Below are positions 32,557 through 56,976 of a stretch of DNA of 64,000 nt, piece after piece. The notes under the pieces were generated by a model. The model made no database searches. It had not been told where the DNA came from and saw nothing but the letters and a program-made list of their open reading frames with translations. This stretch comes from Eledone cirrhosa. Taxonomy: Eukaryota. Numbering within the stretch: the stretch's first letter is position 1; each line of letters begins with the position of its first letter. The translations under genes were made by a program, and so were the position numbers. The DNA lies in the NCBI GenBank assembly GCA_964016885.1, contig OZ024761.1, forward strand, positions 9,858,001 to 9,922,000, written 5' to 3'.

Positions 32557-35500
32557 TACCACAGTCACCAACAGTCTTCTAAACAGGAAACTTCTTCCTC
32601 TTTTTTAGCCATAATGAATCTGGCAAAAGAACTGGAAAAAAACATTCGAGCTATCACCCAGCACCACCCTCCACTATCACCCCACTGCACAAACTCCCAT
32701 TGCTGCCATTAACAAACAAACAAATTAACAACACACCAAAACAATTAAAACCATCCACTCTCGCCTCTACATTTTTGCTTAACGCCCAAGGCATCAGCCC
32801 TTCCACTAATACTCAAAAATGGAAGATCAAATTCCTGGAGGACTGGATTGATGTCCATCCAAACCACATCCCTTTCTTCGTCCTCACTGAAACCCATCTC
32901 AGTAACCTCCACTTGGAAGCCGAGGTGAAAGTGAAAAATTTCAAAGCCATCCGTGCTGATCGCGCTGGCAGAAGAAAGGGCGGAACTGCCATTTATGTCC
33001 ATAATTCTTTCTCAACAGAGGCTATGAACATATTCACTAATGGATACTGTGAGGCAGTCACTGTATTCAGTCAAACCAACAACCTATTAGTAGTTGGGCT
33101 CTATAGGCCACCCCAAACGCCTGTACCATGCTTCAAGGAATGCCTCAACAGCATAAAGTGTTTCATCCAAGAGTGTCACCCTGACAACATCTTAATGATG
33201 GGGGACTTCAACCTCCCCGGAGTTGACTGGTCCACAAACAGCCTGCCACCAGGTTCTTCTGCCTCAACCTCTGACAGGGAAGCTGTGGAATCGCTTCTTG
33301 ACTTCATGGATGATTTCTTCCTATCCCAACTGGTGCTCGAACCAACGAGGTGCCACAAAAACGTCCTAGACTTAATTTTCAGCAATCACACTGACAATAT
33401 CCACAATATTGCAGTGGAGAAAACTCTACTCTCTGATCATGACATGGTTCTCTGTGATCTGAGATTCCACCGTCCAATATACAAACCCAATGTCATCTCT
33501 CCTGTCCATCCGTTTGACGCTATGGATTTCCACAATGCAAACTGGGAAGCGATCAGTCATGATCTTGCACATGTCGACTGGTCCTTCACGCACACTCATA
33601 CACCCACTAACATCAAAAAGTCCTGGCAGACATTTGTGGACACTGTTACAAACATATGTGCTAAACACACCCCATTAAGAACTATAAACAAATCTAAGAG
33701 CAGAATCCCTAGAAATAGAAAAACGCTCATCAGAAAAATTAAGAGAACCGAACAAAAAAATCAACAAGCTGAAATACTGTCAGCAGCAACACATCAACTT
33801 GACTGCCATTTCATCACTAGAGATTAAAAAACATAACCTCCAAAACAACATAATGTCCCTCATCAACAATCAGAGAAGAGCTGAAGAGGCCTGGGCCATT
33901 GAGAAGATCAAACTCAATCCCAAAGTGTTCTTTTCATTTGCAAAAAAACACAAAATCACTGGCTCTACTGTTGGCCCTCTAATTGATGAAAATGGCACTC
34001 TTCAAGACAATGCTAAAACCATGGGTGAGATACTGCAGAAACAATACTGCTCTGTTTTCAGCAATCCTGATATGGCCGATCTGGGCTGTATCGGCGATGT
34101 TACTCCCAATTACACCTTATCGGACATAACGTTTGGCGCCCCTGATGTCTTGGCGGCAATAAAGGAAATCAAGCATAATTCAGCAGTAGGTCCCGATAGG
34201 TTCCCTGCTTGTGTCTTGAAGGCGTGTCAACACCAACTTGCATCTCCTCTTGCCAATCTGTGGCGGAACTCACTGGATGCTGGATATGTGCCAGAAAACC
34301 TTCTATCCCAGTCTGTTGTCCCAGCTTTCAAAAAGGGAAACAAATCCCTTGCCGTGAATTACCGTCCAATCTCACTCACCTCTCATATCATTAAGGTATT
34401 TGAGAGAGTGGTGAGATCGCGAATGACCCACTTCCTTGAGAGTAACAATATGCTGAACTCCAACCAGCATGGATTCCGTAATGGAAGGGATTGCCTGACG
34501 CAGCTACTGCATCACTTTGATGACATTTTGAGAGCCTTGGGAGAGGGTTCCAACACTGATGTTATCTACCTTGATTTCAGCAAGGCCTTTGACAGGGTTG
34601 ATCATAACATTCTACTGAGAAAACTGTCCAATATTGGTGTCACTGGAAAGCTGCTGCAGTGGATCAAGAGCTTCCTGTCAAACAGAACCCAACATGTTGT
34701 AGTTGAGGGAGTCAAATCAAGCCCAGCCAAAGTCAGTAGTGGGGTCCCACAAGGCACTGTGTTGGGCCCACTTCTCTTCATCATCTATATTAATGACATC
34801 ACTGACATCATCAAACACAGCAACATTAAAATTTTCGCTGATGATTCCAAGCTCCAAAAGGTCGTCAATGGCGTGGATGACCGGATAAGCCTTCAGTCAG
34901 ACCTACTGGCTGTTACCCAATGGGCAGAAAAGAACAACATGTTACTGAACGAAGACAAATTCGAACTGATCCACTTTGGAAAAGAGGATGCTCTGAAACT
35001 CCCGTACTCCCTTCCCTCCGGGGAAACTCTCGTGGCATCTAACAACATCAGAGACTTGGGAGTAACTGTGGACAGCAACATAAGCTGGACCACGCATATA
35101 AGCAGCAAAGTTGACATGGCCCGCAGAATGTGTTCCTGGATCCTCAGAACCTTCCAGTCGAGAGATTCCCGCACCATTATCCTTCTCTTCTCTACTTTTG
35201 CCCGACCACACCTTGAATACTGTTGTCCACTGTGGTCTCCCCACACGAAACAAAGTATCATGAAACTTGAAGCTCCTCAAAGGGCAATCACGAAAAAGAT
35301 AGATGGCATGTCAAACCTTGACTACTGGGGTCGATTAGAAAACCTGAAACTTTACTCACTCCAACGTCGCCGTGAGCGTTATATTATCTGCATGATGTGG
35401 AAAATGTTCCATCATCACTGCCCAAATGATGTTGGCATCGCCTTCAAGATACACCCAAGGCTTGGGCCCCGTGCTATCCGTCCCATTCAAAAATCTAAAT

Positions 35501-35808
35501 CGCAACTCATAACAACAATACGGCACAATTATTTCACCTCAATCGGCCCTGCTCTCTTCAACATCACACCAGGACACGTCAAAACAGAAACTGACCACAC
35601 AAAATTCAAGAAGTCTTTAGACAAATTCCTCCAAGTAATCCCGGACAAACCACCCACACCCGGATATGTCTCCGCAAACAGTAATTCTCTTCTCGAATGG
35701 GCCATGGTGCCCAAATCCTGAATTGAAAGACTTCGCCAGGTGGTGCTATTAAGTTAGACATGGCCTGGGCCAATACTGGCCAAAACATTGCAAAGTTATT
35801 CAAAGTTA
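32557..35808 (+). mobile_element. 5'-truncated CR1/L2-group LINE inserted in a (TA)/(TATACA) microsatellite
   Basis: Probable ORF1 C-terminus (stop at 32712), APE-RT ORF2, short 3'UTR ending CAAAGTTATTCAAAGTTA. Confidence 0.85.
32700..35721 (+). pseudogene. LINE ORF2 (APE endonuclease plus RT) split by one frameshift near 33746
   Basis: APE motifs LNAQG, TETH, YRPP, MGDFN, LDLIF, SDH in 32700-33827; RT motifs NYRPISLTS, QHGFR, YLDFSKAFD, SGVPQGTVLGPLLF, FADD in 33799-35721. Confidence 0.88.
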
Positions 35809-37229: not shown

Positions 37230-40200
37230 CTACAGGATGGTATACAGAGAAGGCCCATTTACACGAGCCATTCTCGCCACTATCACCCACCTTTCATAAA
37301 ACTGCCTGTGGCCAAGCACCTCTCTCTCCATTCTTATCCTTCTTCCGAAGTGATATCGGAAGAAGTAGACCAGACTATGGCCAGAGAGGAAGTTGCCTGA
37401 CCTCAGACCTTTCAATCGTGTCCACCAAACAACCTCTTTCAACATGGCTATTACGCACAGAAAAACCGCCTTTGCTTCCTTTGTGAAGAGGGGAGGCGGT
37501 TTGATTGTCATCACGGACTCGGCGGTCAATTTAATCGGCGCCACCCGCGACAGCAGTTGTTCGGCGTAGCCCCACAGATCAGCCACGCCAGGACATTGCA
37601 CTAATGCGTGTGCCACGGTTTCTTCGTGACGCACGCATCTAGGGCAAATCTTTTTTGAGGGATCCCTGCCCGGGCGCCCGTGTCTGTAGAGCCTCTCTCG
37701 AACGGGTAGAGCCCCCCGGTAGCACTGCCAGGCCAGTGACTTCTGGAAGTTGTCCATTGGTCCTGGGCCGAAAGTCCTACCGAACAGGCTGGCCAGTTCG
37801 TCTTCTTCCATGTCCAGCGACTCTCCAAGGGTGTCATCGCCCCTGCTAGCCACCAGCCCTCTATAGAATGATGAGGTGGATTCTCCACCGATGGCCCGGC
37901 CCGCTTGCCAGAGAGCCCTGAGCGCCTGAGCACACTCAGTGTGCCAGTCTCCCAGTTTTCCGGATCTTTGCTTGACCCAGGACTGTAGCTCGGTGAGTGA
38001 GACGAGTCTCGGAAAGGCTCGTTTCACGAACGGAGCCCACACCGGTTGACCAGTGAGGAATACCTGTAGGTGCCGTAGCCTTAATGCGTGCCTACGCATC
38101 ATCAACCACGGCATCCCCAGCCCTCCTTTCGAAGGTTGTTGGCAGCAGATGGATCTTCTCACCATAGGAGGACGCTTCTTCCAAAGAAATTGGAAGAGCA
38201 TGCGTTCCATGGTGGTGAGTGTTTCCTTAGGGCAAGGCACGACAGTCAGGCGGTAGTAAGTGACGGACGCTATGTAAATGTTCGCCACCTCCGCCCGGCC
38301 TTTTAGGGACAGCTTACACTTGGCCCATTTCTGGGTTAGTGCAAACACCTTGTTCGTAACCTCGTTCCAGTTCTTTTCCACCTGGAGGTCCGGTCCAAAC
38401 CAGACCCCAAGCAACTTTACCGGGCCCTCCGTCCAGTGTCCGACGACACCGTCAAGAGGCATCGGTTTGCCTCTCCACGTTCCGAGTTGCAGCCCGATGG
38501 ATTTTTCCCGGTTCAGTTTCGCTCCTGACAACCTTTCGTACTCCTCCAGTAAGGTACCGATCGCCTCGATCTCCGAGTCGGTTGATACCATTACTGTTAC
38601 GTCATCGGCGTAGGCCGACACCGCTTTGCTCAATCCTGGTTCCAGGGGGATACCCTGCAACAACTCCAACTTCCTCAGTAAAGGCTCGAGAGTCAATACG
38701 TACAGAAGGGAGGAGAGAGGGCACCCCTGTCGAATGGATCGTGTGATTTCGAACGGCTTCGAAAGGTAGCCGTTCACCTTGATCCTAGAACAGATGTGGT
38801 TGCTATGTAGGGCAGTGATCCAGCCTCTGAAAACAGGACCGAACCCAGCCGCCGCTAGCACCGCATCCAGGTAACCATGGTCGACCCTATCGAAGGCCTT
38901 AGACTGATCCAAGTTGATCAGGGCCCCACCGAAGCCGGGTTTGTTGCCAACCCTCTCTATGATGTATCGCATGAGGTGGAGGTTATCGTGAATGGACCTG
39001 GATGGGATAGTACATGTCTGCGCATCTCCCACCAGGCCACCCACGACAATCGCCAACCTCTTTGCTAACACCTTGGCCAAAATCTTTAACTCTGTGTTTA
39101 GCAGGGTTATGGGCCGAAAATTATTTATACTATCCCCCTTTTTCTCGTCCTTCCTCACCAGCGTGACTACGCCCTTGGCTACAGAACAAGGAATTCTCCC
39201 GTTCTGCTGCCAATTGCAGTAGACCGCTTCGAGGAGTTCGGAGAAGAAGACCGGCATTGCTAAATAAAGTTCGTAAGGTATACCATCGAGACCTGGAGAT
39301 TTGCGTCTGCTGCATTGGCTCAGCGCATCTCCGATCTCATCAGCCGAGATTGGTCCCTCGCAGGACTCTGCCTCTTTGTTCGAGAGACGCGGCAGGCCGT
39401 CGAGGTATGGACCGAAATCCACGCCCCGGCCCGGACCCTCGCCTCCCCCGAACAATCGGGCAAAGTGCTTTTGAAAGGCCTCGCACATCTGCTTAGGCTC
39501 CCGGATCACTCGTCCATCTTCGTCTTGCAACGATCGGATGGTGGATCGATTTCCACTTTTAGCTTCTGTCACGCGGGCCCATCCAACGGCTTTGGCCCCC
39601 TCATTACCTAGAGCACGTATTTTACTTCGAATGACGCAGCCTTCATGCTTTGCATCGAAAAACTGGTTCAAGGCCGTCCTCGATGCCAGCACTCTGGCCA
39701 CATCTTCGCTCTTGATTGCCTCTTCTAATTTACCTGTTAATTCTTTCTCGTTTCTATTCCTATTGGCAGCTAACATCTTGCTATAACTTATTGATTCTGT
39801 TCTAATCTCTCTTTTGAGAGATGCCCACCATCGGTTGTTGACGATTGCACCCGTCAACCTCTCCTTAACTAATCTGCTAATCCGGTTTCTGTAAGTCTCT
39901 TTTGCCGGTAAAGACAAATTAAGTTTCCAGTAACCGGGACCCTGTCTATGTGTTTTCTCGAGATTGACCACGCAGGTCACTAATTTGTGATCCGTGTAGC
40001 CAACCGTGCGCATTTCTGGACAGCTTAATATGTCCCTATCCTTACTTCTAACTAAGAATCTATCTAAGTACGATCTAGATTGACCACTGTGGTTTCTCCA
40101 AGTCCAGGTAGGCACAGTTGGAAAATCTAGTCGATATCTATCGACCAAGTTAAAACGGTCGAGTAACCCCTTGAGGCTGTTACACCCCCCTCTATTAGGA

Positions 40201-40667
40201 CATGCTCCTGCATAGTCCCAACGTGCATCTAGGATGTCATTCCAATCCCCCGCTAGAAGCAGGGAACGCGACGTTCCCAGAAAAGTCTCCAAACGCTGGA
40301 AGAAGTCGGGCCGTTCAGCTCCGAAAGGGGAGTAGACGGCGACCAGTCTCAAGGCCGCACTTTCACTACTGCCAACGTCTAGCACCAACAAACGACCCTC
40401 CGGGTCCGAGTGCACAACCTGTACGGCAAGACCCAGGTGTTTTTGCAGCAGCACGACAACCCCACCCCCACCTCCAGGTTGACAGAGAGATGCATGCACC
40501 TCAAAGTCATCGAAGGTGGGGGCCAGCTGCCGCATGACGCTGATTCGAGTCTCACAGATAACCATTACATTTATACTACATGACCTGAGGTCATTTAGAA
40601 GCTTTGCTTGCTTCCAAGTTGAGCCCAGGCCACGTGCATTCAAACATCCTACTCTTAACACATCCAT
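37230..40667 (-). CDS. Tx1 ORF2: APE endonuclease, reverse transcriptase and C-terminal zinc finger, 1145 aa, uninterrupted
   Basis: APE motifs LNARGL, CETR, GDWN, SYLDRF, TDH; GPGYWKLN linker; RT motifs SPGLDG, FRPITLLN, DQSKAFDRV, RQGCPLS, YADD; CPRC...ETVAHALVQC. Confidence 0.95.
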   Translation of the reverse strand: MDVLRVGCLNARGLGSTWKQAKLLNDLRSCSINVMVICETRISVMRQLAPTFDDFEVHASLCQPGGGGGVVVLLQKHLGLAVQVVHSDPEGRLLVLDVGSSESAALRLVAVYSPFGAERPDFFQRLETFLGTSRSLLLAGDWNDILDARWDYAGACPNRGGCNSLKGLLDRFNLVDRYRLDFPTVPTWTWRNHSGQSRSYLDRFLVRSKDRDILSCPEMRTVGYTDHKLVTCVVNLEKTHRQGPGYWKLNLSLPAKETYRNRISRLVKERLTGAIVNNRWWASLKREIRTESISYSKMLAANRNRNEKELTGKLEEAIKSEDVARVLASRTALNQFFDAKHEGCVIRSKIRALGNEGAKAVGWARVTEAKSGNRSTIRSLQDEDGRVIREPKQMCEAFQKHFARLFGGGEGPGRGVDFGPYLDGLPRLSNKEAESCEGPISADEIGDALSQCSRRKSPGLDGIPYELYLAMPVFFSELLEAVYCNWQQNGRIPCSVAKGVVTLVRKDEKKGDSINNFRPITLLNTELKILAKVLAKRLAIVVGGLVGDAQTCTIPSRSIHDNLHLMRYIIERVGNKPGFGGALINLDQSKAFDRVDHGYLDAVLAAAGFGPVFRGWITALHSNHICSRIKVNGYLSKPFEITRSIRQGCPLSSLLYVLTLEPLLRKLELLQGIPLEPGLSKAVSAYADDVTVMVSTDSEIEAIGTLLEEYERLSGAKLNREKSIGLQLGTWRGKPMPLDGVVGHWTEGPVKLLGVWFGPDLQVEKNWNEVTNKVFALTQKWAKCKLSLKGRAEVANIYIASVTYYRLTVVPCPKETLTTMERMLFQFLWKKRPPMVRRSICCQQPSKGGLGMPWLMMRRHALRLRHLQVFLTGQPVWAPFVKRAFPRLVSLTELQSWVKQRSGKLGDWHTECAQALRALWQAGRAIGGESTSSFYRGLVASRGDDTLGESLDMEEDELASLFGRTFGPGPMDNFQKSLAWQCYRGALPVRERLYRHGRPGRDPSKKICPRCVRHEETVAHALVQCPGVADLWGYAEQLLSRVAPIKLTAESVMTIKPPPLFTKEAKAVFLCVIAMLKEVVWWTRLKGLRSGNFLSGHSLVYFFRYHFGRRIRMEREVLGHRQFYERWVIVARMARVNGPSLYTIL

Positions 40668-40700
40668 GTGGGCGGCAGAGCCAAAGGAGAGTGTAGAGAC

Positions 40701-42578
40701 CTACCTTTCCGCTTCCCGGGGTTCGGGTTGCACGACTTCCATGGGGTCGGGGGTGTTGGGTGAAGGGGCGTCTTGTGGTGGTGTGGGGTCGTCGGTGTGT
40801 GGTGGGGTTGGGGTGTTTGGAGTTGTGTTGGGGAGGGGAAGGGGAGGGGGAAAGCTTTTTAGTAGGACGCGGTTTATGGGTTTGACAGAGGGTGGTCCTA
40901 CGTCCTCCTTAAAATCCTTTTTTAGTTTTTGGTAGAGGTTCATTGGGATTTTTATTAGTTTTAAATGTGGGTGGTTTTCTGATGAAACAAAGTTTACACC
41001 TTCGGTTTGTACCGAAGGATTATTGTATATGAGTTCATTTAATTTATTATTGTTTCTGTTGATGTAAGTATAGTGTAATGTCTTTTTTTCCGATGGTGTG
41101 AGTGTTTCGAAGAGGGGAGGGGCAGGTTTGGTTTTGTTTGTTGCTGGAGGGGTGTTTTCTGTTTTGTTAGATTGTGTTGCGATTTGGGTGGGGGTTGTTT
41201 GTCCTTGTGTGTTTTGCACATGTTTTCTTTTTTTCCTTTTAATCTGTCTGAAGGACTCCGTTTCTTCCTCCGAATTCGTTGGGTTATCTTCAGTGTTGGA
41301 GGGAAGAGGTATGTTTGCTGGTAATGTTTCCGTGTTGGTTTTCTTTGTGGGGGAGATGGATGTCACTATGTTAGACTGTGTTGTGTGTTGTGTCTGCGGT
41401 GGTTGTGTTGTTTTATTGAGTGAGAGGTTGGGTGGGCCTGTATTTTGTTTTGGGGTAATGTGTTGTGACTGTTTGTGTTGTGGTGGTGTTGTGGTGTTAC
41501 TGAGGGACGGGTTGGGTGGGACTGAGTTTTGTTGTTTGTTTATCTGTTGTGGTGGTGGTGGTGGAGCTGGTGTTGGTAGCAGGGTTTTCTTTTTGTTGAG
41601 TTGGGGACAAGCGGCCTTCAGGTGCCCTCTGCCTGCACAGATATGGCAGGACGGCCTTCTCCCCTCCACGCTAATGTTTATATACCCGTGGTCCTCTAAT
41701 AGGATTCTGTCGGGTATTTGGGCGATGCGTTCAGGCTTCATTTGTACTACCAGCTCTATACCTGTTCCACTGAACGCATTGCCTGTGGTTTTCCCAATGG
41801 AAATCACGTTGTCATTCACTGGATCGATGAAACCAGCTATGAGCCAGCAGTAGTCCACATCTGGCATCATTGCATCCAGCCATATGCGTTGAGTTTTTTT
41901 TCCCATATAAGATGGATAAAAGGTGAAATTTTTCGAACGAATCGGTGACAAAGCACATTTTTTTGCCGCCGATTCGTTCTTCATGATAATTGCTAGGCTT
42001 CCATACAGTCTGTCTTTTCTTATGAAAGTTGTTTCATTCAGTACTTCTGCGAGTACTGTTTTGATATCTGCTTGAGAAGGCTGTTCAGGTTTTTTTGTAT
42101 TGTTGTTGATGGTCCGAAACTTGACCGTTCGGCTTTCAATGTCTTTCGTGAATTCTTGAGGCATTTTTACCAATAAAATACCATTCTCACCTTCACTTAT
42201 GTATTGTTTTGCGTCCGTGATCCTTCGTACCACATCTGAAATGTTTTCCGCTATATAAGTCAAAGATTTCTTTGTTTTCTGTGCAAATGAAATCTTGTCG
42301 TCTGCTTTGTTTTCTGATATGATGTTATTTTCAACTGTTATTTTTTTGTTTGTTGTGTCTTTGTTTGTGTTATTAGTATTGTCATGCAATTTTTCAAATT
42401 TTTTTTTTTCGTTGTTTTCGTCATTTAATTTTTTCTCCGCAGATTCGTCCGTTTTTATTTTCATTTTTCCTTCCTTCTCTATGACGTTAGTTGGGAAGGA
42501 AGGGAGGACTAAAGCGTGCGAGCTTACAACTCTTACCGCTGTCCCCCCACCACTATTTTCGTTCGCTGCGTTTAACAT
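40701..42578 (-). CDS. Tx1 ORF1 (gag-like nucleic-acid-binding protein), 625 aa
   Basis: Long ORF directly upstream of ORF2; CCHC zinc knuckle CHICAGRGHLKAAC; Pro/Thr/Gln-rich C-terminal half. Confidence 0.88.
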   Translation of the reverse strand: MLNAANENSGGGTAVRVVSSHALVLPSFPTNVIEKEGKMKIKTDESAEKKLNDENNEKKKFEKLHDNTNNTNKDTTNKKITVENNIISENKADDKISFAQKTKKSLTYIAENISDVVRRITDAKQYISEGENGILLVKMPQEFTKDIESRTVKFRTINNNTKKPEQPSQADIKTVLAEVLNETTFIRKDRLYGSLAIIMKNESAAKKCALSPIRSKNFTFYPSYMGKKTQRIWLDAMMPDVDYCWLIAGFIDPVNDNVISIGKTTGNAFSGTGIELVVQMKPERIAQIPDRILLEDHGYINISVEGRRPSCHICAGRGHLKAACPQLNKKKTLLPTPAPPPPPQQINKQQNSVPPNPSLSNTTTPPQHKQSQHITPKQNTGPPNLSLNKTTQPPQTQHTTQSNIVTSISPTKKTNTETLPANIPLPSNTEDNPTNSEEETESFRQIKRKKRKHVQNTQGQTTPTQIATQSNKTENTPPATNKTKPAPPLFETLTPSEKKTLHYTYINRNNNKLNELIYNNPSVQTEGVNFVSSENHPHLKLIKIPMNLYQKLKKDFKEDVGPPSVKPINRVLLKSFPPPLPLPNTTPNTPTPPHTDDPTPPQDAPSPNTPDPMEVVQPEPREAER

Positions 42579-43065
42579 TTCTGTTAGACGATTGAAATTT
42601 TTTACACAAAATTTTTTTTAAAACAGGTTTTTCCCCTCTAGGAGGGGTAAAGATGAGCTGACCCACCGCCTGACAGTTCAGACGGAGGGTCAAGCTGCAC
42701 AATTGTATCAAAATTAAGTTTGAACTCACAAAATTTCCTCAATAAATTTGAACAAAACTTCTGTGCGAAGTGAATGACATCCACACTGTAGAACAGACGA
42801 CAGCTAGATTAATATATGGATAAATAGATAGTTAGTTAGATAGTCATTTGGAGAGAAAATGGACAGACAATGGGACAGATAGTGTAAGAAGACATCTGCA
42901 AACGTGACGTCAGAGTTGTGCCCTAATGACTTGGGCTGAATAAGTACTACTGACCTACGACACACAGACAGACTTGACACTGAACTCAATTGATAGAGAA
43001 TGCCAGTTAAGTGGCTTTTGACCTTGATATTCCATAAACAACTACATAGATAGATAGACTCATAT

Positions 43066-45960
<2,895 letters not shown>

Positions 45961-49832: not shown

Positions 49833-49877
<45 letters not shown>

Positions 49878-49881
<4 letters not shown>

Positions 49882-50070
49882 AAAAAGTAGGACCCCGAAG
49901 GAAGAGCTCAAGCCGATTCGACGGCTATTTCTAGACTAAATTAGAATTTTTAGCCTGGTGAATAAATAGCCGTCGGGGTCATACTTTTTCCTATTTCCCA
50001 CTCTACTACCCTAAGTATTGAGTACTCTGCTGCGTTATGGTCCACCTGGTTCCTTACCACATTTTCTTTG

Positions 50071-50074
<4 letters not shown>
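49878..50074 (+). mobile_element. Family B short foldback copy retaining the complete stem II insert
   Basis: Inverted arm runs through CGGCTATTTC...AAATAGCCG, then switches to the direct arm at GCCGTC. Confidence 0.8.
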
Positions 50075-50111
<37 letters not shown>

Positions 50112-50668: not shown

Positions 50669-50842
50669 GGGGATTCCTTTCTTTGTTTCTGTGCCTCTCC
50701 TTTGTTCTGTCCTACGCCATTTTGTTTCTGTTTCTGTATATATATATATAACGAAGGAAATGTGGTAAGGAACCAGGTGGATCATAACGCACCAAAGTAC
50801 TCAATACTTGAGGTAGTAGAGTGGGTAATAGGAACCAGTAAG

Positions 50843-50936
50843 ACCCCGACAGCTGAGCTCAAGCCGTTTCGACGGCTAATTCTGGACTAAATGAAAATTT
50901 ATCCTGGTATTGAAATAGCCGATCTTCTCAAGGGGT
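50843..50936 (-). ncRNA. Type I hammerhead ribozyme with U3-A8 variant core (family B, inverted arm)
   Basis: Near-exact reverse complement of 52876-52969. Confidence 0.75.
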
Positions 50937-52875
50937 AATTCCATATATGGTCAAAGTGATTGTCAAAAATCAGTAGTAATTCTGTGGTTGCAAATTAGTA
51001 GGGGAGATGGTGGCTAAACCTGCCAGTAGGAGAAAGAGGGGAGGGGGTGGAGTAGACCCAATCAAGCGTTTGTAGTGCCAGCTACAGCTGGGCATGAGGT
51101 CAAAGAAGATACAGGGGAGGGGGAGGGGGAGGAAGTCGGAACGGTAGGTAGAACAATGGGGGGTATATATACCATTATATATAGGAAAGAAAAAATACTG
51201 AGAGTGAAGAAAAGCAAATAAGTGTAAAGAAAAACAAATGAGTGTAAAGAAAAAAGTAAAGTAAATTAAATTCTACGACCTAGGTTTCTAGCTATTGTTA
51301 GGCTATTCTAGCTATTGTTAGGCTAGAATAAATAAATAAAGAAATAAAGAAAGAAAGAAGTAAAGAAAGAAATAAAGAAATAACGAAATAAGTAAAAGAA
51401 CTAGGTGGGACGGAATAGGCGAGGACCCTTTTAAGAGGTATAAGTACGTAAATGATACGGTGACGGGTCAACAAAAGGGGCCAAAATACTAAAGAAACTA
51501 CCACGAAATAAACAATAAAGGTTTCCATCCCGGGCACAATTCCAGCAACCACCCAGTGCAGCAAAGTGAACTAATACGAGATAATAATTCTGAGTCCCGA
51601 GAAAAATATACTAATGCTAACTCTAAAAGATCTAAAACAAGCTACATGAAAGTTCGTACGAAGTAAAGGTAGAATACGGAAAAATAAATTCAGAATCCAC
51701 CCCGCCCAAAAGAAAAGCCGGGGGGGGGGGGTAGACTAGGGCTATAACACCCCACTTGCCGATTTTGCAATGGGTAACCCCTGCTTGCCAAGGGAGACGT
51801 AAGATCTTCTTTGTTTCTTTTATCGCTTCCTTTATTTCCTTCCTTCCCCCCTCTCTCCTTAGTCCTTCTACCCCAGCTCTTCTCCTTTGTCGGCGTCTTT
51901 TCTCGCCCACCCGAGGCTGCCCTTTGGCCCCTTGTAGCCTTAGTACCCCCACCCCCTCCCCTAGTCTAGGATAGATTTGGCGGACTCCGCCCTTTATAGC
52001 AGTTGGTTTAGACCCCGGATACTTGTCCCCTTTTTCCGACCGCTCCCACTATTCTCTGTGCCCTCTATATTTCTTAGTGGCACTTATGCCTTATTTTTTC
52101 GTTTCAGTATTTCTTTCTTCGCTTTTCTTTTGGGCGGGGTGGATTCTGAATTTATTTTTCCGTATTCTACCTTTACTTCGTACGAACTTTCATGTAGCTT
52201 GTTTTAGATCTTTTAGAGTTAGCATTAGTATATTTTTCTCGGGACTCAGAATTATTATCTCGTATTAGTTCACTTTGCTGCACTGGGTGGTTGCTGGAAT
52301 TGTGCCCGGGATGGAAACCTTTATTGTTTATTTCGTGGTAGTTTCTTTAGTATTTTGGCCCCTTTTGTTGACCCGTCACCGTATCATTTACGTACTTATA
52401 CCTCTTAAAAGGGTCCTCGCCTATTTCGTCCCACCTAGTTCTTTTACTTATTTCGTTATTTCTTTATTTCTTTCTTTACTTCTTTCTTTCTTTATTTCTT
52501 TATTTATTCTAGCCTAACAATAGCTAGAGACCTAGGTCGTAGAATTTAATTTACTTTACTTTTTTCTTTACACTCATTTGTTTTTCTTTACACTTATTTG
52601 CTTTTCTTCACTCTCAGTATTTTTTCTTTCCTATATATTTCTACCCCCCATTGTTCTACCTACCGTTCCGACTTCCTCCCCCTCCCCCCCCCCTCCCCTG
52701 TATCTTCTTTGACCTCATGCCCAGCTGTAGCTGGCACTACAAACGCTTGATTGGGTCTACTCCACCCCCTCCCCTCTTTCTCCTACTGGCAGGTTTAGCC
52801 ACCATCTCCCCTACTAATTTGCAACCACAGAATTACTACTGATTTTTGACAATCACTTTGACCATATATGGAATT

Positions 52876-52969
52876 ACCCCTTGAGAAGATCGGCTATTTA
52901 AATACCAGGATAAATTTTCATTTAGTCCAGAATTAGCCGTCGAAACGGCTTGAGCTCAGCTGTCGGGGT
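52876..52969 (+). ncRNA. Type I hammerhead ribozyme with U3-A8 variant core (family B)
   Basis: ACCCC-TTGAGAA-GAtCGGCTA...TAGCCGTC-GAAA-CGGCT tgagctc AGCT-GTC-GGGGT; GUC triplet, predicted cut after 52964. Confidence 0.75.
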
Positions 52970-52979
52970 CTTACTGGTT

Positions 52980-53014
<35 letters not shown>

Positions 53015-53016
<2 letters not shown>

Positions 53017-54020
53017 TAGACATGAAAAATGCGCAAGCTCAAAAGTGCCACAGAATGTTATAATAAACCTTCAAAAGTGTGGGACTAGAGTTGTTGCTAA
53101 AAAATATTGTAATCATTATATATCGTACATTCTGTGGCATCCTTTATAAAAATAGCTTAAACCAACGAAGCCTTTATTTTTACGCTATTTCACTTAGTTA
53201 ATTCTTAGAGTGTAACATATAAAAATATGATTTACAACTATAAAATAAATTAATTAATATAATAACAGAGCTGCGGAGCTGAAATTTAGGAAATAATGGA
53301 GTATCGGATCCTGAGTTGGAGCCAGTCAATTTTTGACCGACTCCGCAGCCCTGTATAATACATTTCATATTAAAGTTATTAATAAACCTATTTTACACTT
53401 CATGCAAATTACCACGAGATATTGATATTAGATATAAGATACAGCGCAATATCTACAGCTGTAAAAGTACGAAAGCGAAGTAATAATAAGTGGCTTAAGG
53501 TAATTCCAATATGAAAGTTTGTAGTGATAAAAATTTGATAATGCAATACGATTGTTAATATTATAGTTCTATGAAAATGTAACAATAGATAACTAAATTA
53601 TTTTACTATTAGTATATTTAAGAAATTATCATTATAGATTTGATCGTTCATATAAGCATCATATTAAGTTTCAACACAATTATTTTGTTACTATGAGTAT
53701 ATGATAATAATATTACGTAATTATTTATAGCTGTTATTACATTAAACATAGATGTATTTATTTTTATATGTTACACTCTAAGAATTAACTAAGTGAAATA
53801 GCGTAAAAATAAAGGCTTCGTTGGTTTAAGCTATTTTTATAAAGGATGCCACAGAATGTACGATATATAATGATTACAATATTTTTTAGCAACAACTCTA
53901 GTCCCACACTTTTGAAGGTTTATTATAACATTCTGTGGCACTTTTGAGCTTGCGCATTTTTCATGTCTAGTTTAATATTTTTTTAAGGCAACGCTTGTAA
54001 TAACTCTAGTTAAACAGGAT
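53015..54020 (+). mobile_element. Family I foldback (about 213-bp near-perfect arms plus a 50-bp tail)
   Basis: 53015-53227 is inverted relative to 53758-53971; starts in (TA)n and ends GGATATATAT. Confidence 0.7.
53266..53353. mobile_element. Small hAT-type MITE nested in the family I spacer
   Basis: TIRs CAGAGCTGCGGAG / CTCCGCAGCCCTG; 8-bp flanks TATAATAA / TATAATAC (7 of 8 match). Confidence 0.6.
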
Positions 54021-55574: not shown

Positions 55575-56764
55575 TGTAGGCGAAATAATGCAATGGTTTA
55601 ATAGGGAAGATATAACTTACGAATTATGTCTCTAACCGTGTAACGCTTTTTAAGTAGATAACTACAATTGAAAATACTAAAGAAATGGAACCAACAATTC
55701 AATTTGAAAGTCGTCTAGTGACAGTGTATTACTGGTACTTTATTTTATCGACCCCGTAACGATGAAAGGCAAAAATGCAAATGCTTAAAATTTAAATTGC
55801 CTTAATTCTATCGTCTGCTGTTTCATTAAAGGGAGATTATCGTCTGTATTTAATTCTATCGTCTACTGTTCCACTAAACAGATATACCTTCACTATCGTC
55901 TCTATTTATACATTTTAACTTATAACTTATACACATTTGATTTGAAATATTTTATCTAGTCCCCCCTCTCAATATTATGATGATTTCTTTCGAATGAAAC
56001 AGTTCTAGTCCTGTAGAAGCCATTTATATATATAATTGAACTGAGTTAAAAATTCACAATATTTATAATTAAATAAGCTCATATATATATGTGTGTATTT
56101 ATCTGTTTATTGTATTATATATAATGTGTGTATATACAGGATGTCCCCCAAAAATATATACACACTTCAACAGCATTCTAATAACTATTGCCTGTACAGG
56201 TAATCAAAGTGTCAATCGAATGTTAGTTTCGTGTTTTAACAGTACAAATTTACAATACACACATAAAACCAGTGTATATACATACATGAGTGTGTATACA
56301 CATACATGAATGTGTATATACAATATATATGTATATATATATATAGACACATGTATTCACGGTGCAACGGTACATTAAAATATAGATGCGGGAGAGGGGG
56401 TGTATATATAGGGGCGCTGGGGATAAAGGAGTGTAAAGCGTGTGTAATTGATATATTGAAGGAGAGGAGCGTGCAGCGATAGAGTAACAAATATATAGAG
56501 AGGGGGAGAGATGGTATTGAAGGGGAGGAGTGCAAAGCGAAAGAGTAAGAGATATAAATAGAGACGGAACAGATAGAGAGAAACAGGCGTAAGTAACAGT
56601 GGAAGAGATATAGAGAGAGGTACTCTGATTGGTTGAAAATTAGCCAATGACATACGATCACCACCACGGCTATCCCCGAAAAATTTTTAAAGAAACTAGG
56701 CATATATGTTAGAACACGAAAAGTGAACATTCTGTGTTTCACACTTTTCGTGTTCTAACAGATA

Positions 56765-56976
56765 TAACGAAGGAGGTGTGGTAAGGAACCAGATGGACCA
56801 TAACGCACCAGAGTACCCAATACTTAGTGTTTAACCCCGACGGCAGAGCTCAAGCCGTTTCGACGGCTATTTTTGGACTCAGAAATAGCCGTCGAAACGG
56901 CTTCAGCTGTGCCGTCGGGGTTAAATTTTTTCCTATATATATATGTATATATATGTATCTTACCACACCCTCTTTG

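What the first reader, a model, noticed from the sequence alone, without database searches (positions are those of the whole stretch)
50749..52983. 2.2-kb foldback carrying two hammerheads with a non-canonical U3-A8 core
Seen: arms of about 0.87 kb (50829-51718 / 52121-52983) around a 400-bp spacer that begins with a G run. Each arm holds ACCCC-UUGAGAA-stem II-GAAAC-stem III-GUC-GGGGU. The right arm stops 19 nt after the predicted cut, the same boundary as in the short copies. Known: C3-G8 is a tertiary pair in the hammerhead core, and a U3-A8 swap keeps the pairing, so standard CUGANGA searches would miss it. Stem II has a long insert whose pairing is retained with different bases in the 49920-49975 copy. 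Inference: this is the longest form of family B in the window, and a read-through transcript would form about 0.87 kb of dsRNA, a potential ADAR/Dicer substrate.
Basis: partly seen in the sequence, partly recalled or inferred. Interest (0 to 1): 0.85.

Follow-up and report, generated by a model that had tools for sequence, protein, structure and literature searches.

The report
Two-armed Penelope retrotransposon insertion with hammerheads
The fold-back is one truncated, mirror-image insertion of a young, abundant jumping gene of a known kind whose odd hammerhead core is already in print; the new lead is that most copies in the genome stop abruptly inside the hammerhead, which likely marks the start of the element's RNA.

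Summary
The foldback is real, but it is the ordinary footprint of a Hydra-clade Penelope-like element (PLE). Intact 3.54-kb copies elsewhere in the genome encode a 719-aa RT plus GIY-YIG protein. The arms are two 5'-truncated copies joined back to back in (TA)n. The 'spacer' is extra 3' UTR, and the G run is the ORF's last codons. U3-A8 is the subfamily consensus (2,171 of 2,208) and is already published for PLE hammerheads. Only one hammerhead is sense per strand, and in read-through RNA it is predicted to be buried in the duplex.
More interesting, and not found in my literature searches: (1) 73 of 74 two-armed insertions pair two fixed ends (+17 and +98 from the cut). (2) About 80% of arms stop at a wall inside helix II, yet 0 of 26 ORF-length copies stop there. 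This points to a short RNA template starting in helix II and a separate long, possibly circular one. (3) Sister subfamilies with a C3·A8 mismatch also amplified (1,500 core copies). No RNA data could be obtained. Earlier scan notes describe similar two-ended U3-A8 elements on other DNA of this genome.

The parts
50750..52981 (.). Whole two-armed insertion of a Hydra-clade Penelope-like element, flanked by (TA)n on both sides
50750..51718 (-). Arm ending at site B (+98 from the cut): element positions -814 to +98
   Evidence: (WIN row)
50750..50830 (-). 81-nt one-sided 'tail' between the two fixed ends A (+17) and B (+98)
   Evidence: tail concept from Craig 2021 and Frangieh 2024
50799..50822 (-). 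Hairpin 1 (+26 to +49), just downstream of end A; a twin hairpin follows end B in tandem copies and is absent here. Candidate protein-binding or RT-start signal (inferred)
   Evidence: similar motif seen by eye in published Hydra consensus ends; lead from note e1-9560118
50843..50936 (-). Type I hammerhead, U3-A8 core, predicted cut after C50848
51719..52981 (+). Arm ending at site A (+17): element positions about -1210 to +17; joined to the other arm at 51718/51719
51719..51739 (+). Last codons of the PLE ORF (G run = Pro-Gly-Gly region; 12 G here, 8 in L032) and stop TAG at 51737-51739
51740..52120 (+). 'Spacer': the start of the 3' UTR, present only in the longer arm
52876..52969 (+). Type I hammerhead: U3 52881, A8 52886, helix II 52888-52941, 6-bp helix III with palindromic loop, predicted cut after C52964
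52918..52941 (+). 3' arm of helix II (-46 to -23): where most short family copies begin, with a wall at about -44 to -46
52982..53016 (.). (TA)n target tract, right flank
49877..50077 (.). Short two-armed copy of an older subfamily (A arm to -73, B arm to -6)
5295..5493 (.). Typical short two-armed copy (A arm to -41, B arm to -35); others at 712-889, 1018-1153, 12158-12353, 14351-14441, 24538-24660, 56764-56933

Best explanation
This is one 5'-truncated, back-to-back insertion of a young Hydra-clade Penelope-like retrotransposon into a (TA)n repeat, likely made when both ends of a DNA break primed reverse transcription at two fixed sites on the element's RNA and the two partial copies were joined. 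Shown: family identity, the two fixed ends, A+B pairing, (TA)n targets, varied short-homology junctions, and arms more alike than unrelated copies. Inferred: the GIY-YIG domain cuts both strands; one end primes at UAU near +18 and the other at UAU near +98, each just upstream of a conserved hairpin; the template was uncleaved or re-ligated, since cDNA runs through the cut site. Inferred (about 0.6): there are two template classes. A short-class RNA has its 5' end near -45 in the helix II loop (most simply the mRNA start in the pLTR) and gives the roughly 190-bp MITE-like palindromes that make up most copies. A long class (multimer or hammerhead-made circle) gives long arms like these. The hammerhead is predicted to fold and plausibly cleaves, but cleavage is untested and may be dispensable. 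This locus has no ORF and is a dead by-product.
For: Tandem 3,543-bp units with a 786-codon open frame. Motifs RWR, DKT, YRDD, CxCX5C, C-terminal GIY-YIG-like, CxxC and CxH match Craig's Hydra diagnosis. Many copies are 97-100% identical with long open frames. Ends at +17..20 or +98..103 against (TA)n. A+B in 39 of 39 short and 34 of 35 long two-armed insertions. In 42 of 42 arms the partner arm was closer than the median other copy, and it was the nearest in 23 of 42. Wall: young subfamily reaches -22 in 10,802, -44 in 2,076 and -47 in 1,866 matches, against 3-9% loss per 63 nt further upstream (n=99). A arms (about 55 nt) and B arms (about 135 nt) stop at the same coordinate. 26 of 26 ORF-selected copies that reach the upstream helix II pass it (22 independent loci). 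30 of 35 two-armed insertions with a long arm are long+long, and only 1 has a helix-II partner. Frangieh 2024 showed two internal RT starts, extension of both strands and hammerhead-independent insertion for a Poseidon PLE.
Against: No RNA or read evidence was obtained. No tree against published Hydra proteins was built; membership rests on motifs and by-eye comparison, and Pfam found nothing for the protein. The unit (3.5 kb) and tail (81 nt) are longer than the published <3 kb and 30-40 bp. No cap-derived G enrichment at the wall. The wall is soft (-44 to -46, a few to -53) and coincides with the end of the helix II 3' arm, as a structure-dependent stall would. The C3·A8 subfamilies made long copies too, which weakens a strict need for cleavage-made circles. 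Arm likeness could partly reflect later gene conversion. One long insertion was A+A (L044) and 27 of 62 long insertions had only one detected arm.
Confidence: 0.88

Rival explanations
1. The wall in helix II is a reverse-transcriptase stall on folded hammerhead RNA, not an RNA 5' end; long copies come from RNA molecules in which helix II is not folded.
For: Stops span exactly the 3' arm of helix II (-23 to -44) and cease at its loop. No cap signature was found.
Against: 0 of 26 long cDNAs stop at the second passage (P about 4e-16 for 22 independent loci at p=0.8). Long arms pair with long arms (30 of 35) where independent stalls predict about 11%. Most stops lie beyond the strongest G-C helix rather than at its base.
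Confidence: 0.25
2. The hammerhead is slow or inactive in this lineage, and long templates are uncut linear multimers; U3-A8 is a drift state rather than a compensated pair.
For: 1,500 of 5,839 cores are C3·A8, in older ORF-bearing subfamilies. The tail group that mostly carries this core has 14,949 arms. C3-G8 copies are rare (9 of 49 G8 hits) and the four in the tree are scattered. In Anolis, hammerhead mutants insert normally. No pile-up of ends at the cut site was seen.
Against: All other core positions and helices I and III stay conserved while N7 varies freely. U3-A8 hammerheads are reported active in vitro. Long cDNAs show no 5' limit, and some adjacent units share private breaks, as a circle predicts, though DNA-level duplication also explains this.
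Confidence: 0.35
3. The foldback is a host-used or autonomous hairpin RNA (retrozyme-like, ADAR or Dicer substrate).
For: A read-through RNA would form about 850 bp of duplex. A scan note reports edited Penelope hairpins elsewhere in this genome (e1-8671701, unchecked).
Against: Arm lengths and junctions differ at almost every locus. There is no A>G excess here. The hammerheads are on opposite strands, so no cut-to-cut monomer can form. There is no evidence of transcription.
Confidence: 0.05
4. The palindrome is an assembly artefact or a later DNA inversion.
For: The arms are nearly identical, and foldbacks are a known assembly problem (general knowledge). Long reads could not be checked.
Against: The arms end at two different family-specific sites, differ by indels, and have unique non-inverted flanks. 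The same layout recurs in 74 other examined insertions.
Confidence: 0.03

Closest known systems
Hydra clade of C-terminal EN+ Penelope-like elements (Craig et al. 2021, PMC8557442; passages, section 11 and supplement parts read)
   Same: Single ORF with DKT, RW(K/R), CxCX5C linker, CxxC/CxH and no CCHH; (TA)n insertion; hammerhead in the pLTR; inverted 5'-truncated copy and one-sided tail (their Fig. 2; Penelope-13_HM has one). The N-terminus resembles Hydra-1_Obim by eye.
   Different: All 26 Hydra rows of File S2 have a CUGA core, 3-7-bp helix II and 3-4-bp helix III (their descriptor would miss U3). Here the core is U3-A8 (or C3·A8, U3·G8), helix II is 54 nt and helix III 5-6 bp. The unit is 3.5 kb with a 1.1-kb 3' UTR, the tail is 81 nt, and copy number is at least 50,438 arms.
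Schistosoma Cercyon PLE hammerheads (Cervera and de la Pena 2014, PMC4209133; parts 1-2 of 4 read)
   Same: U3-A8 core in PLE pLTRs (about 1,300 hits); paired motifs on opposite strands 100-700 bp apart.
   Different: Those are minimal, dimer-dependent hammerheads; this one has a helix III predicted to form as a monomer, though its loop is also palindromic.
Anolis Poseidon PAc (Frangieh et al. 2024, PMC11167929; main text read)
   Same: Two internal RT start sites define the tail; both strands are cut and extended; AT-rich target; hammerhead not needed for insertion in vitro.
   Different: Different clade. The paper does not describe A+B pairing of inverted arms or a 5' wall inside the hammerhead.
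Animal non-LTR retrozymes (Cervera and de la Pena 2020, PMC7229834, passages; Li et al. 2026 bioRxiv, abstract only)
   Same: Type I hammerhead, tandem copies, proposed circular templates copied by PLE RT.
   Different: This family is autonomous; its short copies lack the 5' half of the ribozyme and are not tandem monomers.

Membership tests
Penelope-like elements (EN+) | Single ORF with RT and C-terminal GIY-YIG endonuclease | tested here: met
   719-aa ORF in full copies with YRDD and VIYQ..YIG motifs read by eye; 2,018 homologues of about 700 aa; Pfam scan itself blank
Penelope-like elements (EN+) | Tandem or partial-tandem pLTRs, inverted 5'-truncated copy, one-sided tail | tested here: met
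Hydra clade | DKT instead of DKG; RWK motif | tested here: met
   SDKTG present; RWR in place of RWK, as also in published Hydra-1_Crog
Hydra clade | CxCX5C linker, CxxC and CxH around conserved E and N, no CCHH | tested here: met
   CNCPDRSIC, CNLC..E, N..CKH; no CCHH seen by eye
Hydra clade | Insertion into (TA)n | tested here: met
Hydra clade | Canonical hammerhead; generally under 3 kb | tested here: not met
   U3-A8 core and 3,543-bp unit. These are typical traits in the paper rather than the protein diagnosis, hence 'variant'
Hydra clade | Phylogenetic placement of the RT | not tested
   Published proteins were seen only as supplement text and were not entered into any tool
Type I hammerhead ribozyme | Three helices around the conserved core with NUH cut site | tested here: met
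   MFE fold and pair probabilities; helix I 99% and helix II 89% paired across 30 representatives
Type I hammerhead ribozyme | Watson-Crick 3-8 pair | tested here: inconclusive
   Met in this copy and in 2,171 of 2,208 of its subfamily; not met in 1,500 C3·A8 and 39 U3·G8 relatives
Type I hammerhead ribozyme | Self-cleavage | not testable with these tools
   Needs an in vitro assay or RNA ends
Retrozyme | Non-coding cut-to-cut monomer between two same-strand hammerheads | tested here: not met
   Hammerheads on opposite strands; the parent element encodes an ORF
MITE (short copies) | Uniform copies of a few master elements with fixed internal sequence | tested here: not met
   35 distinct junctions in 39 short insertions, ends always A+B

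The most novel reading that the evidence does not exclude
This Hydra PLE starts its mRNA inside its own hammerhead (helix II loop, about -45). Twin priming near that 5' end produced tens of thousands of MITE-like palindromes, each made anew, while long and full-length insertions came only from hammerhead-made 3.5-kb RNA circles. The genome would thus record both a PLE's promoter position and a role for its ribozyme, with natural 3-8 mismatch subfamilies as built-in controls.
Probability: 0.35. Interest if true: 0.72.

Novelty: new variant of a known kind. Interest (0 to 1): 0.45.

Why it matters
The locus itself is ordinary. The family is useful because the function of PLE hammerheads and the origin of PLE inverted and tandem structures are stated as open in the papers read (Craig 2021, Frangieh 2024). 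A young family with intact ORFs, two fixed priming sites, a sharp 5' wall and natural U3-A8, C3·A8, U3·G8 and C3-G8 cores makes these questions directly testable. It also warns that MITE-like palindromes in (TA)n may be retrotransposon by-products, and that CUGANGA descriptors undercount PLE ribozymes.

Tried and rejected
Rfam: no hit. A DNA search of the own genome returned nothing because common words are skipped; patterns were used instead. Pfam and PDB sequence searches of the ORF: nothing useful. Covariation test of the hammerhead: not above shuffles. ADAR scar in the arms: absent. Cap-derived G at the wall: G at -45 in 8 of the first 100 non-C hits, and 4 of the 5 seen in context are explained by the partner arm or a long copy; inconclusive. 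An Inr-like word at the wall (consensus recalled, not from a call) is not kept in all subfamilies, so it was not used as evidence. The idea that an inactive core yields more long copies: not supported, since about 1,500 C3·A8 cores against 14,949 arms of that tail group is no higher than 2,208 against 10,802 (the groups do not match exactly). Short copies as self-propagating MITE or SINE: rejected on junction diversity and because they lack hairpin 2. Cleaved 3' product as template: no pile-up at +1. No sequencing-run data were obtained, so expression, editing and long-read support stay open. The kinetic papers on 3-8 exchanges (Przybilski and Hammann 2007; Nelson and Uhlenbeck 2008) were not held, so the activity of C3·A8 and U3·G8 is not sourced. 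Literature searches for the helix-II wall, A+B pairing or mismatch-core subfamilies listed nothing that describes them; subscription papers, bioRxiv supplements and Repbase/Dfam entries were not visible and may.

Full report
1. Observation. The inverted repeat is present: 50828-51718 pairs with 52121-52984 at 95% identity, with the differences mostly indels. Each arm holds a type I hammerhead with core UUGAGAA (U3 52881, A8 52886) and predicted cuts after C52964 (+) and C50848 (-). The three-way junction is the minimum-energy fold, although the energy z-score is only -0.62 and Rfam has no hit. Positions below are counted from the cut (C17 = 0).

2. What it is. The 21-nt 5'-half motif has 2,171 exact matches in the 3.0-Gb own genome and the reversed control has 0. 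Some lie in 3,543-bp tandems. [quoted passage not shown] The motifs fit Craig et al.'s Hydra clade (PMC8557442, section 11): RWR, DKT, CxCX5C, CxxC, CxH, no CCHH, and (TA)n targets. The best 150 scored copies of the N-terminal 193 aa are 94-100% identical and many have full open frames, so the subfamily is young. The window element is two 5'-truncated copies back to back. The minus arm covers -814 to +98 and the plus arm about -1210 to +17. The 'spacer' is the extra 3' UTR of the longer arm, and the G run is the ORF's last codons, with the stop at 51737-51739. An inverted truncated copy with a one-sided tail is described as typical of PLEs.

3. The core. U3-A8 is the subfamily state: 2,171 of 2,208 matches with positions 3, 7 and 8 left free, and all 17 non-U3 copies keep A8. 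Natural U3-A8 is in print and reported active in vitro (Perreault 2011, passages), and it occurs in Schistosoma PLEs (Cervera 2014). All 26 Hydra rows in Craig's File S2 have CUGA and short helices, so this is a variant for the clade. Against a simple compensated swap: among 5,839 family cores, 1,500 are C3·A8 and 49 have G8, of which 39 are U3·G8, 9 C3-G8 and 1 A3·G8. In a tree of 171 distinct sequences, most C3·A8 copies group together with C3-G8 copies scattered among them, and an old group is U3·G8 (no support values examined). C3·A8 loci carry ORF remnants 89-96% identical in protein. Across 30 representatives the helices stay paired (88.6% of cells), but covariation does not exceed shuffles.

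4. Ends. Essentially all 3' ends fall at +17..20 (A) or +98..103 (B) against (TA)n. Two-armed insertions are A+B in 39 of 39 short ones and 34 of 35 long ones; one was A+A, and 27 of 62 long insertions had a single detected arm. Partner arms are closer than the median other copy in 42 of 42 arms and nearest in 23 of 42. Each end lies at a UAU, 3-5 nt upstream of a similar bulged hairpin. I took this lead from note e1-9560118 and saw the same motif by eye at published Hydra consensus ends. Frangieh 2024 (main text) showed two internal RT starts and extension of both strands for an Anolis PLE. I infer twin priming from the two ends of one break, on RNA that is uncut or re-ligated.

5. The wall. 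The 3' half of the hammerhead has 50,438 matches across subfamilies. In 102 arms sampled by that motif, 84 begin between -23 and -49. For the young subfamily, 10,802 reach -22, 2,076 reach -44 and 1,866 reach -47 (longer exact patterns also lose some copies to mutation). Further upstream the loss is 3-9% per 63 nt (99 of the first 100 listed 5'-half hits). In 464 kb of unselected DNA, 15 of 18 A arms and 7 of 20 B arms stop at -23 to -55; 12 B arms stop earlier, and only this element's two arms are long. This is not a general RT block. Of 30 ORF-selected copies, 4 stop at +20 to +149 of the upstream unit and 26 of 26 pass helix II. Long arms pair with long arms in 30 of 35 cases. Junctions are varied (35 distinct of 39, microhomology in 23; some loci were chosen for reaching -44), so short copies are made anew. 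They also lack hairpin 2, so they are unlikely to be their own templates. The simplest reading is a short-class RNA with its 5' end near -45 that continues into the ORF, that is, the mRNA start. PLE transcripts are reported to start in the upstream pLTR (passages). Long arms need a template with site B downstream of the 3' UTR and no 5' limit: a multimer or a circle. A cap signature was not found, and the wall coincides with the helix II loop, so loop cleavage or a fold-dependent stall remain possible.

6. The dsRNA idea. A plus-strand read-through would pair 851 bases at long range and bury its only sense hammerhead. The right arm shows 1 A>G among 40 substitutions against a full-length copy. 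No expression data were obtained.

7. Verdict. The locus is a dead by-product of a known class, and both headline features (foldback, U3-A8) are published. The family-level patterns (strict A+B pairing, the helix II wall with two template classes, mismatch-core subfamilies) did not appear in searches, and they make open PLE questions testable. Scan notes on other DNA of this genome report the same two-end pattern and U3-A8 cores; they are unchecked and are not counted as support. The host species was not determined. Novelty: new variant of a known kind; interest 0.45.

Noticed in passing
window 20278-21432 (-): Uninterrupted 384-codon frame that looks by eye like a class A GPCR (DRY and NPxxY motifs).
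   Followed up: no
window 37230-42617 (-): L1/Tx1-like LINE by eye, with a 638-aa ORF1-like frame (zinc knuckle) and a 1,156-aa endonuclease-RT frame; a broken relative at 43984-45677.
   Followed up: no
window 32583-35721 (+): CR1/L2-like LINE by eye, endonuclease and RT in two overlapping frames.
   Followed up: no
window 53012-53974: Element with perfect 216-bp terminal inverted repeats at the far end of the same (TA)n tract, with a small nested inverted-repeat element near 53267-53353.
   Followed up: no
L033:226-3741 (G000:C1, about 91.49 Mb): A 55-bp piece of the PLE ORF is repeated about 65 times between a five-unit tandem arm and its inverted arm.
   Followed up: no
G000 C1:377714569/377718106, C2:11106756/11110302, C6:58006727/58010275: Adjacent tandem units show the same shortened frame or stop, as expected from one template copied twice or from DNA-level duplication.
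   Followed up: no
L193, L205, L216, L249-L274; L197, L222, L236: Sister subfamilies with C3·A8 (1,500 cores) or U3·G8 hammerhead cores that amplified with the same A and B ends.
   Followed up: partly
window 50799-50822 (-) and L032 tandem junctions: Twin bulged hairpins just downstream of ends A and B; a similar motif is visible in published Hydra consensus ends.
   Followed up: partly
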